Positions 21,924 through 22,546 of a DNA stretch of 27,033 nucleotides are shown here, piece by piece (the stretch's first letter is position 1; every line of letters begins with the position of its first letter). The notes under the pieces were generated by a model. The model made no database searches, had not been told where the DNA came from, and worked only from the letters and a program-made list of their open reading frames with translations. Origin of the DNA: a virus (lineage: Duplodnaviria > Heunggongvirae > Uroviricota > Caudoviricetes); IMG/VR virus record IMGVR_UViG_2537562015_000005, positions 1-27,033 of that record. One strand, given 5' to 3'. The translations under genes were made by a program, and so were the position numbers.

Positions 21924-22300
21924 GGTGATGCTGCCAACTTACTGATTTAGTGTATGATGGTGTTTTTGAGGTGCTCCAGTGGCTTCTGTTTCTATCAGCT
22001 GTCCCTCCCGTTCAGCTACTGACGGGGTGGTGCGTAACGGCAAAAGCACTGCCGGACATCAGCGCTATCTCTGCTCTCACTGCCGTAAAACATGGCAACT
22101 GCAGTTCACTTACACCGCTCCTCAACCCGGTACGCACCAGAAAATCATTGATATGGCCATGAATGGCGTTGGATGCCGGGCAACAGCCCGCATTATGGGC
22201 GTTGGCCTCAACACGATTTTACGTCACTTAAAAAACTCAGGCCGCAGTCGGTAACCTCGCGCATACAGCCGGGCAGTGACGTCATCGTCTGCGCGGAAAC
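21924..22300 (+). mobile_element. IS1 fragment (left 377 bp: IRL, insA, 5' part of insB), inverted relative to copies 1 and 2; a sequence variant
   Basis: Begins GGTGATGCTGCCAACTTACTGAT. IS1 identity stops after ...TGCGCGGAAA (22300), where IS3-family transposase coding sequence begins. InsA differs from copies 1/2 at three residues. Confidence 0.9.
21979..22254 (+). CDS. insA: IS1 InsA (variant)
   Basis: 91 aa [16 protein letters not shown]...; three substitutions relative to the insA of copies 1 and 2. Confidence 0.85.
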
Positions 22301-22301
22301 T

Positions 22302-22525
22302 GCTGGGATAACAGTCCAATGGAGCGCTTCTTCCGGAGTCTGAAGAACGAATGGGTGCCGGCGACGGGCTATGTAAGCTTCAGCGATGCAGCTCACGCAA
22401 TAACGGACTATATCGTTGGATATTACAGCGCACTAAGACCGCACGAATATAATGGTGGGTTACCGCCAAACGAATCAGAAAACCGATACTGGAAAAACTC
22501 TAACGCGGTGGCCAGTTTTTGTTGA
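22302..22525 (+). pseudogene. IS3-family transposase OrfB, C-terminal fragment (~74 codons) fused to the truncated IS1
   Basis: In-frame [20 protein letters not shown]...[33 protein letters not shown] then stop. No recognisable IS3 inverted repeat before the next gene, 21 nt downstream. Confidence 0.75.
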
Positions 22526-22546
22526 CCACTTCATACCGCAGGAGGC

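What the first reader, a model, noticed from the sequence alone, without database searches (positions are those of the whole stretch)
21924..22546. IS1/IS3 chimeric debris lies within about 20 bp of the DUF262 cassette start
A truncated IS1 (insA intact) is fused at 22300/22301 to the last ~74 codons of an IS3-family transposase, which ends 21 nt before the DUF262 start codon (RBS AGGAGG retained). The native upstream region of the cassette is gone, so expression must depend on read-through or IS-borne promoter activity; all are in the same orientation.
Basis: seen in the sequence. Interest (0 to 1): 0.4.

Follow-up and report, generated by a model that had tools for sequence, protein, structure and literature searches.

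The report
IS1/IS3 scar upstream of TgvAB
Two broken insertion sequences sit just upstream of a known two-gene anti-phage restriction system (TgvAB), which they have cut off from its original operon; this is an ordinary mobile-element scar, notable only because the same scar travels with the system in hundreds of E. coli genomes and Klebsiella plasmids.

Summary

**What is there**
- 21924-22299 is IS1 nt 1-376.
- It joins the last 239 nt of an ISEc52/IS911-type IS3-family element, which ends at 22533. The join lies inside a 5-nt GGAAA microhomology (22295-22299).
- Only 13 native bases (22534-22546, including AGGAGG) remain before the ATG.

**What the cassette is**
- The "DUF262 cassette" is a TgvAB homologue, a GmrSD-like type IV restriction pair. 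A 2024 paper already lists this E. coli protein as a TgvA homologue.
- In its closest relative (Aeromonas media, 96% nt) tgvA overlaps the stop codon of hsdS inside an hsdM-hsdS-tgvA-tgvB-hsdR-M48 operon.
- Homology to that operon begins exactly at 22534. The IS3 element therefore inserted into the last five codons of hsdS, and the 13 bases are hsdS coding sequence, not a promoter region.

**How widespread it is**
- All 255 complete E. coli genomes, and about 397 of 398 plasmids (mostly Klebsiella), that carry this allele share the IS3/tgvA junction.
- The IS1/IS3 chimera is a later deletion, seen in 156 E. coli chromosomes.

**Expression**
- Expression was not measured. The best inference is read-through from the upstream hsdR-M48 unit, with a contribution from the weak IS1 promoter.

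Ordinary; low interest.

The parts
21137..21892 (+). M48/YgjP-like metallopeptidase gene, the last gene of the upstream type I R-M unit (hsdM 14443-16029, hsdS 16026-17123, yecA-like 17120-17803, hsdR 17853-21140)
   Evidence: Pfam PF01863, E = 1.3e-57. RefSeq annotation of the identical locus in FORC_031.
21893..21923 (.). 31-nt spacer between the M48 stop codon and the IS1 left end. The same M48/IS1 junction occurs in E. coli BY63 and in a Klebsiella IncF plasmid.
21924..22299 (+). IS1 fragment, nt 1-376: left inverted repeat, promoter region, insA, the A6C frameshift motif at 22230-22236, and the first codons of insB'
   Evidence: 97.6% identity to both full IS1 copies in the window.
21931..21958 (+). 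Sigma-70-like site CTGCCA-16-TATGAT inside the IS1 left inverted repeat, where the weak IS1 promoter (PIS1) is described
   Evidence: Consensus scans (top 0.009% of positions in the window). PMC12428005 says PIS1 is extremely weak, overlaps IRL and is repressed by InsA.
21979..22254 (+). insA open reading frame (91 aa, GTG start) with Cys11->Arg (CGT at 22009-22011) in the CxxC zinc-finger pair
   Evidence: The same substitution is present in BY63 IS1 copy 2 and in the Klebsiella plasmid.
22295..22299 (.). GGAAA microhomology in which IS1 nt 372-376 and IS3-element nt 1011-1015 were joined (11-of-13 extended match over 22287-22299)
   Evidence: three-way comparison.
22300..22533 (+). 3' remnant of the ISEc52/IS911-type IS3-family element (element nt 1016-1250): last 74 codons of orfB (22301-22522), stop at 22523-22525, right inverted repeat about 22498-22533
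22448..22453 (+). Perfect TATAAT hexamer inside the orfB remnant, with a poor -35 (TACAGC, 18-nt spacer). Candidate weak outward promoter, about 100 nt upstream of tgvA.
   Evidence: Position-weight scan, top 0.08%. Consensus match only.
22522..22551 (+). Hybrid promoter-like site: outward -35 TTGACC of the IS right inverted repeat, an 18-nt spacer, then CATGAT, which overlaps both ATG codons of tgvA
   Evidence: top 0.015%. PMC9330008 documents the outward -35 in the IS911 right inverted repeat.
22534..22546 (+). The only native upstream DNA left: TACCGCAGGAGGC, the last codons of an Aeromonas-type hsdS (...LPLPQEA*). It contains the Shine-Dalgarno AGGAGG (22540-22545).
   Evidence: Identical in Aeromonas media L003, where it is hsdS coding sequence. 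blastn homology to L003, L004 and L005 begins exactly at 22534.
22550..24001 (+). tgvA homologue (DUF262/GmrSD_N plus DUF7834; 483 aa from ATG 22550, 484 aa from ATG 22547)
   Evidence: Pfam. The identical FORC_031 protein is listed as a VC1767 homologue in Table S5 of PMC11411939.
23994..26036 (+). tgvB homologue (DUF262/GmrSD_N plus DUF1524/GmrSD_C, 680 aa). It overlaps tgvA by 8 bp, as in V. cholerae.
   Evidence: Pfam. The 8-bp overlap is described in PMC11014532.

Best explanation
Region 21924-22533 is a two-layer insertion-sequence scar. It has separated a TgvAB-type restriction cassette from the type I R-M operon in which it evolved.

**Shown**
1. The cassette's ancestor lay in an hsdM-hsdS-tgvA-tgvB-hsdR-M48 operon, with the tgvA start overlapping the hsdS stop.
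2. An ISEc52/IS911-type element inserted into the last five codons of hsdS, 13 nt before the first ATG. This single junction is shared by every copy of this allele found in complete E. coli genomes and by nearly all copies on plasmids.
3. In the oldest form recovered (E. coli BY63) the complete IS3 element is flanked on its left by IS1 truncated at nt 544. That IS1 lies downstream of the M48 gene of a different type I R-M system.
4. In the window's lineage, a deletion between GGAAA in IS1 (nt 372-376) and GGAAA in the IS3 element (nt 1011-1015) removed about 1.18 kb. The loss covers the rest of IS1, and the left inverted repeat, orfA and most of orfB of the IS3 element. Both elements are now immobile.

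**Inferred**
- tgvAB is now transcribed as the tail of the upstream hsdR-M48 unit, with a small contribution from the weak, InsA-repressed IS1 promoter.
- Transcripts run through insA and the orfB remnant into tgvA. tgvA keeps its own Shine-Dalgarno sequence.
- The outward -35 in the IS3 right inverted repeat cannot serve TgvA. Its only candidate -10 covers the start codons, so a transcript would begin about 22558, inside the gene.
For: **Structure**
- IS1 and IS3 identities and the junction.

**Native context**
- Aeromonas media L003 is 95.8% identical over 22534-25991, and homology starts at the first base after the IS.
- Its upstream gene ends ...LLTGRIRLPLPQEA*, with an ATGA overlap onto tgvA.
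- At least 41 of 80 species representatives have hsdS upstream and/or hsdR-M48 downstream.
- The remnant LPQEA* resembles the tails of the other embedded-type hsdS genes (e.g. RIRLPLEQQP*) and not the window's own hsdS tail.

**Spread**
- 255 E. coli genomes carry tgvA and 255 carry the IS/tgvA junction.
- 398 plasmids carry this allele at >=99% identity and 397 carry the junction; 389 of the 399 matching records are Klebsiella.

**Series of forms**
- BY63: full IS3.
- CREC-629: IS3 nt 822-1250.
- Klebsiella plasmid: IS1 nt 1-240, then an unidentified 255-nt fragment, then IS3 nt 933-1250.
- Window type: 156 genomes, on no plasmid.

**Read-through**
- No plus-strand terminator-like site lies between 18949 and 26141. 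One follows tgvB at 26142-26160.
- The orfB stop lies inside the right inverted repeat, 8 nt from the IS end, so no terminator can fit there.
- Upstream host transcription has been shown experimentally to run into IS1, and an rrnB terminator blocks it (PMC12428005).

**Still functional?**
- Both ORFs are intact.
- dN/dS on the E. coli branch is about 0.10 (tgvA) and 0.33 (tgvB).
Against: - No transcript data were examined, so expression and its origin are inferred only.
- About 200-290 nt between the insA stop (22254) and tgvA may be untranslated, which could allow Rho-dependent termination. From my own recollection, not checked here, IS1 insertions are classically polar.
- The CREC-629 form has no IS1 and no complete upstream operon: an IS5 on the opposite strand truncates hsdM'. 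Read-through from hsdR-M48 therefore cannot be the universal mechanism.
- All E. coli and plasmid copies are more than 99% identical, so intact ORFs may simply reflect recent spread.
- The dN/dS branch also includes time before the IS insertion.
Confidence: 0.6

Rival explanations
1. A promoter inside the retained IS3 tail drives tgvAB in all configurations. The candidate is the perfect TATAAT at 22448-22453, giving a start near 22460. On this reading the IS tail acts as a mobile promoter and is kept for that reason.
For: - The last 239-240 nt of the IS3 element is the only upstream sequence common to every form (window, BY63, CREC-629, Klebsiella plasmid).
- TATAAT scores in the top 0.08% of positions.
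- It lies about 100 nt from the ATG. That is within the roughly 150 bp in which IS-borne promoters gave detectable expression in PMC12095673. The same paper estimates that at least a quarter of IS3-family elements carry outward promoters.
- The CREC-629 form lacks any complete upstream operon.
Against: - The -35 is poor (2 of 6), there is no extended -10, and the stricter scan did not report the site.
- TATAAT is fixed by the coding sequence (PHEYNGG) of every ISEc52/IS911 copy.
- Retention of the tail is expected from geometry alone. A deletion that removed the whole IS without harming tgvA would have to end within 13 nt.
- The four observed truncation endpoints (IS nt 741, 822, 933, 1011) would all leave at least 240 nt with probability (1011/1250)^4 = 0.43 if they fell at random.
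Confidence: 0.2
2. The cassette is transcriptionally silent or nearly so in this context. It would be a recently spread passenger that has not yet decayed.
For: - No strong promoter is predicted in the 650 nt upstream.
- The IS1 promoter is described as extremely weak and InsA-repressed.
- The island is decaying: hhe is cut by an IS21-family element in the window and hsdM is interrupted by IS1 in FORC_031.
- All copies are more than 99% identical, so there has been little time for inactivating mutations.
Against: - Both ORFs are intact in every form examined.
- dN/dS on the E. coli branch is below 1.
- No plus-strand terminator is predicted between hsdR and tgvB.
- The allele is kept in 255 genomes and about 398 plasmids, in several independently rearranged forms.
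Confidence: 0.2
3. A hybrid promoter drives the cassette. It would be made of the outward -35 (TTGACC, 22522-22527) of the IS3 right inverted repeat and the flanking CATGAT (22546-22551).
For: - It is the second-best sigma-70 match in the region (9 of 12; top 0.015%).
- The same -35 forms the strong junction promoter of IS911 circles (PMC9330008).
Against: - The -10 overlaps both ATGs, so the predicted start (about 22558) lies downstream of the Shine-Dalgarno sequence and both start codons.
- Such an RNA could not encode full-length TgvA, and TgvB alone gives no protection (PMC11411939 and PMC11014532).
- The next in-frame start (GTG 22571) has no Shine-Dalgarno sequence.
Confidence: 0.05

Closest known systems
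TgvAB of Vibrio cholerae VPI-2 (VC1767/VC1766), a type I-embedded GmrSD-like type IV restriction system
   Same: - Two genes overlapping by 8 bp.
- TgvA has DUF262 only (plus DUF7834 here); TgvB has DUF262 plus the DUF1524 His-Me nuclease.
- DGQQR is present in both proteins.
- The identical E. coli protein (FORC31_2075) is listed as a VC1767 homologue in the paper's Table S5.
- The closest relatives sit between hsdS and hsdR, as in V. cholerae.
   Different: - Here the pair is no longer embedded. An IS3-family element cuts it from hsdS 13 nt before the ATG.
- hsdR-M48 downstream has been replaced by hhe.
- Activity of this allele against phages was not tested.
- I did not align it directly to VC1767/VC1766.
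IS911 junction promoter, and hybrid promoters formed by an outward -35 in an IS inverted repeat
   Same: The right inverted repeat carries the same outward TTGACC, and a 4-of-6 -10 follows at 18 nt in the flank.
   Different: The -10 lies on the gene's start codons, so any transcript would start inside tgvA. This resembles an accidental, non-productive hybrid rather than an activating one.
Read-through expression of genes downstream of an IS (transcription from host DNA or the IS passing through the element)
   Same: Co-oriented upstream operon, no predicted terminator, and an orfB stop codon 8 nt from the IS end. Host transcription entering IS1 has been demonstrated experimentally.
   Different: Not demonstrated for this locus. 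About 200-290 nt of possibly untranslated RNA could cause polarity.
Nested and decayed IS clusters in enterobacterial defence islands and IncF plasmids
   Same: Successive insertions followed by internal microhomology deletions. Several independent truncation variants exist between the same outer boundaries.
   Different: Nothing unusual. The only notable point is that one outer boundary (IS3 right end / tgvA) is invariant across about 650 replicons.
PrrC in the EcoprrI locus: a defence gene embedded between the type I hsd genes (own recollection, not checked here)
   Same: The native architecture of the cassette: an extra defence gene inserted inside a type I R-M operon.
   Different: Unrelated proteins. 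No evidence here that TgvAB is regulated by the type I enzyme.

Membership tests
IS1 | Left inverted repeat GGTGATGCTGCC... and >95% identity to known IS1 | tested here: met
   97.6% identity over 376 nt to two full copies in the window.
IS1 | insA with zinc finger and HTH, plus the A6C frameshift site | tested here: met
   Pfam PF03811 and PF12759. AAAAAAC at 22230-22236. The zinc-finger residue Cys11 is replaced by Arg.
IS1 | insB'/DDE domain and right inverted repeat (a complete, mobile element) | tested here: not met
   Homology stops at IS1 nt 376. This is a fragment only.
IS3 family (ISEc52/IS911 type) | Right inverted repeat ending ...CA, related to the left inverted repeat | tested here: met
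   22498-22533 ends GACCACTTCA. A full copy (L083) ends identically and is flanked by a 3-bp TAA duplication.
IS3 family (ISEc52/IS911 type) | orfB integrase-core C-terminus | tested here: met
   PF13683 rve_3, E = 1.3e-8. 96-98% nt identity to ISEc52.
IS3 family (ISEc52/IS911 type) | Left inverted repeat, orfA, frameshift window and the DDE catalytic core | tested here: not met
   Only element nt 1011-1250 remain in the window. All are present in the BY63 form.
TgvAB (GmrSD-like two-protein type IV restriction) | Two adjacent genes: A = DUF262 without nuclease; B = DUF262 plus the DUF1524 His-Me nuclease | tested here: met
   Pfam PF03235 + PF25202 for A; PF03235 + PF07510 for B. The 8-bp overlap matches V. 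cholerae.
TgvAB (GmrSD-like two-protein type IV restriction) | Conserved DUF262 motifs QR, DGQQR and FxxxN in both proteins | tested here: met
   Read from the translations. A: [22 protein letters not shown]: MYQRNY, IDGQQRF, FFEAMNN. The motifs are defined.
TgvAB (GmrSD-like two-protein type IV restriction) | Sequence homology to VC1767/VC1766 | tested here: inconclusive
   I made no direct alignment to the V. cholerae proteins. The paper's Table S5 lists the identical FORC31_2075 protein as a VC1767 homologue. Homologues in V. parahaemolyticus and V. vulnificus are 63-64% identical.
TgvAB (GmrSD-like two-protein type IV restriction) | Embedded between hsdS and hsdR of a type I R-M operon | tested here: not met
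   In the window it is flanked by IS debris and hhe. The feature is met in the closest relative and in at least 41 of 80 species representatives. The paper itself finds stand-alone tgvAB 17 times more common than the five-gene operon, so embedding is not required for membership.
TgvAB (GmrSD-like two-protein type IV restriction) | Restriction of phages with glucosylated hydroxymethylcytosine, requiring both proteins | not testable with these tools
   Needs plaque assays.
IS-derived hybrid promoter | Outward -35 in the inverted repeat plus a flanking -10 at 16-18 nt | tested here: met
   TTGACC-18-CATGAT, 9 of 12.
IS-derived hybrid promoter | The transcript start lies upstream of the activated gene's ribosome-binding site | tested here: not met
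   The -10 spans 22546-22551 and overlaps the ATGs at 22547 and 22550, so the predicted start is about 22558. This is inference from geometry.

The most novel reading that the evidence does not exclude
The retained 240-nt tail of the IS3-family element is the functional promoter of this widely disseminated tgvAB allele, through its internal TATAAT and/or the outward -35. On this reading the IS insertion converted an operon-internal, type-I-coupled restriction pair into a self-sufficient portable module, and that conversion helped it spread across Klebsiella IncF plasmids and E. coli islands.
Probability: 0.15. Interest if true: 0.35.

Novelty: new member of a known kind. Interest (0 to 1): 0.2.

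Why it matters
**Practical interest**
- TgvAB is an experimentally validated defence against T-even-type phages with hypermodified cytosine.
- One allele is present in 255 of 5,426 complete E. coli genomes and in about 398 plasmids, 389 of the 399 matching records being from Klebsiella.
- Every copy has lost its native transcriptional context to the same IS insertion.
- Whether these copies are expressed decides whether they count as active defence. That matters for predicting phage host range or choosing therapeutic phages, and it cannot be assumed from gene presence.

**Evolutionary interest**
- The locus shows one concrete route by which an embedded tgvAB becomes a stand-alone cassette.

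**Otherwise**
- Beyond that, it is a routine IS scar.

Tried and rejected
1. **Known RNA element.** An Rfam scan of 21000-23000 at E <= 1 gave no hit on either strand.
2. **Assignment to a PADLOC system.** Both proteins hit HEC-06, Orf5 and SspE models mainly through the N-terminal DUF262 domain (best-scoring stretches all within residues 1-217 for TgvA). This shows shared domains, not membership. NCBIfam had no model for either.
3. **Hybrid promoter as the driver.** Rejected on geometry, because the -10 sits on the start codons.
4. **Selection for keeping the IS3 tail.** The four truncation endpoints are compatible with chance (probability 0.43). Complete removal of the IS is nearly impossible without damaging the 13-nt leader.
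5. **Composite transposon (IS3 ... IS3) carrying tgvAB-hhe.** In BY63 no IS3 copy lies between hhe and yecA. The IS3-family fragments downstream in FORC_031 are separate.
6. **The window's own hsdS as the gene the IS3 interrupted.** Its C-terminus (...GKRRVKIDEAVAA*) does not match the remnant LPQEA*. The embedded-type hsdS tails, e.g. Aeromonas RIRLPLPQEA*, do.
7. **Simple IS3 insertion in situ.** The complete IS3 in BY63 has different flanks: IS1 nt 544 (...GATAT) on the left and TAC on the right, with no 3-bp duplication. Its two junctions therefore come from different events, either IS3-IS3 recombination or an IS-mediated adjacent deletion. I could not decide between these.
8. **Ton-Hoang et al. 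1997 on the IS911 junction promoter.** The paper is not held, so I used a review instead.
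Full report
**Where the window comes from**

The window is E. coli chromosomal DNA. Region 21700-22800 is 100% identical to strain FORC_031 and many other isolates. There it lies in a defence island next to a P2-like prophage and the chromosomal yecA gene. The gene order on the plus strand is:
- hsdM (14443-16029), hsdS (16026-17123), a yecA-like gene (17120-17803), hsdR (17853-21140) and an M48/YgjP-like peptidase (21137-21892);
- the region under study;
- two DUF262 genes (22547/22550-24001 and 23994-26036);
- the first 131 codons of the anti-phage gene hhe (26212-26607), cut by an IS21-family element.

**Checking the observation**

- *IS1 fragment.* 21924-22299 is IS1 nt 1-376, 97.6% identical to the two complete IS1 copies elsewhere in the window.
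- *insA.* It is an open 91-codon frame with both Pfam InsA domains. Codon 11 is Arg instead of the second Cys of the CxxC zinc-finger pair. The zinc finger is required for InsA binding to the inverted repeats (PMC12428005), so this copy's InsA is probably impaired. That is an inference.
- *IS3-family fragment.* The downstream piece is 96-98% identical to ISEc52, a close relative of IS911. It corresponds to nt 1011-1250 of a 1250-bp element.
- *The junction.* A three-way comparison places the join inside a shared GGAAA (22295-22299), within an 11-of-13 imperfect match. This is a microhomology deletion between two internal sites, not a transposition junction.
- *End of the IS.* The orfB remnant stops at 22523-22525 and the element ends at 22533.
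Only 13 (TACCGCAGGAGGC) are non-IS.

**What the cassette is**

- The first protein is DUF262 (GmrSD_N) plus DUF7834. The second is DUF262 plus DUF1524 (GmrSD_C). The genes overlap by 8 bp.
- Two groups showed that both TgvAB proteins are needed to restrict T-even phages carrying glucosylated hydroxymethylcytosine (PMC11411939 and PMC11014532).
- The supplementary table of stand-alone TgvA homologues in PMC11411939 lists FORC31_2075, the identical E. coli protein.
- PADLOC and NCBIfam have no dedicated model. PADLOC hits are mainly to the shared N-terminal domain.

**The native upstream region**

- A scan of one genome per species returned 80 loci.
- The closest is Aeromonas media (97% and 95% protein identity; 95.8% nucleotide identity over 3.46 kb). 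It has hsdM-hsdS-tgvA-tgvB-hsdR-M48 with overlapping genes.
- Nucleotide homology to the window starts at exactly 22534, the first base after the IS.
- In Aeromonas the sequence reads ...CGT ATC CGC CTG CCG CTA CCG CAG GAG GCA TGA. This is the end of hsdS (...RIRLPLPQEA*), and its TGA overlaps the tgvA ATG.
- The 13 surviving bases, Shine-Dalgarno sequence included, are therefore hsdS coding sequence. The IS3-family element inserted into the last five codons of hsdS.
- At least 41 of the 80 loci have a type I gene directly flanking the pair. The rest are stand-alone with ordinary intergenic leaders.
- The remnant resembles the tails of other embedded-type hsdS genes and not the window's own hsdS.
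- The V. cholerae work obtained protection in E. coli with 520 bp of upstream (hsdS) DNA. This hints at an internal promoter in hsdS. Any such promoter is gone here.

**How old and how common each layer is**

- *E. coli genomes.* 255 of 5,426 complete genomes carry tgvA, all at >=99% identity. Exactly 255 carry the IS3-end/tgvA junction.
- *Plasmids.* In the plasmid collection 398 records carry the allele at >=99% identity and 397 carry the junction. Of the 399 matching records 389 are from Klebsiella, and most are conjugative.
- *Upstream structure varies:*
  1. BY63 type (at least 19 genomes): M48, a complete IS1, 6 bp, IS1 nt 1-544, a complete 1250-bp IS3 element, then tgvAB and an intact hhe.
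  2. Two genomes with the IS3 element from about nt 741.
  3. CREC-629 type (about 72 genomes): hsdM', then the first ~97 codons of hsdS joined to IS3 nt 822.
  4. A Klebsiella IncF plasmid: IS1 nt 1-240, an unidentified 255-nt fragment (possibly IS-derived, not checked), then IS3 nt 933-1250.
  5. The window type: IS1 nt 1-376 joined to IS3 nt 1011-1250. It occurs in 156 genomes and on no plasmid.
- *Shared markers.* The window's IS1 fragment matches BY63's second, truncated IS1 copy and shares the Cys11Arg change.
- *Derivation of the window form.* It is derivable from the BY63 form by one deletion of about 1.18 kb.
- *Derivation of the CREC-629 form.* Its hsdM' fragment is 92% identical to the window's hsdM. 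This form can be derived from the same ancestral block by a larger deletion.
- *An unresolved step.* In BY63 the complete IS3 has non-matching flanks and no 3-bp duplication. Its two junctions therefore stem from different events. I could not determine which.

**How the cassette is likely expressed**

Nothing here was measured.
- *Terminators.* Consensus scans find no plus-strand terminator-like site from 18949 to 26141. One follows tgvB at 26142-26160.
- *No room for a terminator in the IS.* The orfB stop codon lies 8 nt from the IS end, so transcription through the IS must exit into tgvA.
- *Three promoter-like sites on the plus strand of the debris*:
  - The IS1 promoter region (CTGCCA-16-TATGAT, 21931-21958). 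It is described as extremely weak and InsA-repressed.
  - A perfect TATAAT at 22448-22453 with a poor -35.
  - TTGACC-18-CATGAT at 22522-22551. Its -35 is the documented outward -35 of the IS911 right inverted repeat. Its -10 overlaps both ATGs, so a transcript would begin near 22558 and could not encode TgvA.
- *Precedent.* Read-through of host transcription into a co-oriented IS1 has been demonstrated experimentally.

I therefore favour read-through from the hsdR-M48 unit plus the weak IS1 promoter, at about 0.5-0.6 for this step. An IS-tail promoter and a silent cassette are the main rivals, at about 0.2 each. Two points count against my favoured model:
- The CREC-629 form has no complete upstream operon.
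- The stretch 22255-22546 may be untranslated and polar.

**Is the cassette under selection?**

- Using Vogesella and Chitinimonas as outgroups, substitutions on the E. coli branch give dN/dS of about 0.10 for tgvA (5 non-synonymous, 15 synonymous) and 0.33 for tgvB (28 non-synonymous, 24 synonymous).
- This is weak evidence for function. That branch predates the IS insertion in part, and the enterobacterial copies are too similar to one another to be informative.
- Universal retention of the IS3 tail is not evidence for function either. A deletion removing the whole IS would have to end in a 13-nt target, and the four observed endpoints are compatible with chance (probability 0.43).

**Verdict**

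- Its inference is reasonable but untested, and its picture of a lost native promoter region needs correcting: the cassette was operon-internal.
- The feature is a routine nested-IS scar next to an already described defence system.
- The modestly new points are three: the exact insertion site in hsdS, the invariance of that junction across about 650 replicons, and the series of independent internal deletions.
- Interest is low (0.2).

Noticed in passing
window 17120-17803: A YecA-family gene (227 aa; NCBIfam equivalog PRK10396, 361 bits) sits between hsdS and hsdR of the upstream type I R-M system, and its start overlaps the hsdS stop (ATGA). This is the same "embedded gene" layout as native tgvAB. 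The island also lies next to the chromosomal yecA in FORC_031 and BY63, and the same gene is present in the Klebsiella plasmid module.
   Followed up: partly
window 26212-26607 and 26617-27033: The anti-phage gene hhe (DUF4011) is cut after about 131 codons by an IS21-family element (istB on the minus strand; IS100 in RefSeq). hhe is intact in BY63, uninterrupted as far as the fetched stretch runs in CREC-629, and cut by an IS5-family element in the Klebsiella plasmid.
   Followed up: partly
window about 26005-26211: Homology to the Aeromonas, Vogesella and Chitinimonas tgvB genes fades about 9-10 codons before the tgvB stop, so the C-terminal tail (…LLSNQIQQ*) and the 175-nt spacer to hhe are of different origin. 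The native hsdR-M48 downstream has been replaced by hhe. None of the 80 species-representative loci had an hhe match next to tgvAB. A terminator-like hairpin lies at 26142-26160 (+).
   Followed up: partly
window 22009-22011: insA codon 11 is CGT (Arg) instead of TGT (Cys), in the CxxC zinc-finger pair. The same change is in BY63 IS1 copy 2 and in the Klebsiella plasmid, so it is an old marker of this particular IS1 copy.
   Followed up: partly
L085 8523-8777 (Klebsiella pneumoniae IncF plasmid NZ_CP023916.1): In the plasmid version of the same module, a 255-nt fragment lies between IS1 nt 240 and IS3 nt 933. By eye it resembles the 3' end of an IS110-family transposase gene. No database check was made.
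   Followed up: no
window 6839-7606 and 12552-13319 (minus strand): Two complete 768-bp IS1 copies, identical to each other over the first 417 nt compared, and 2.4% divergent from the truncated copy at 21924-22299. In FORC_031 one IS1 interrupts the hsdM region, whereas hsdM is intact in the window.
   Followed up: partly
L084 7136-8453 (E. coli BY63): A complete IS1 is followed after only 6 bp (TTTGTC, a repeat of the bases before the first copy) by a second IS1 left end. This is an odd near-tandem IS1 arrangement whose origin I did not work out.
   Followed up: no
protein P0019: An E. coli O13,129,135:H11 protein, 89% identical to TgvA over 89% of its length, is annotated as a DeoR-family regulator and carries an extra PF08220 hit. 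It may be a fusion or a mis-called variant.
   Followed up: no
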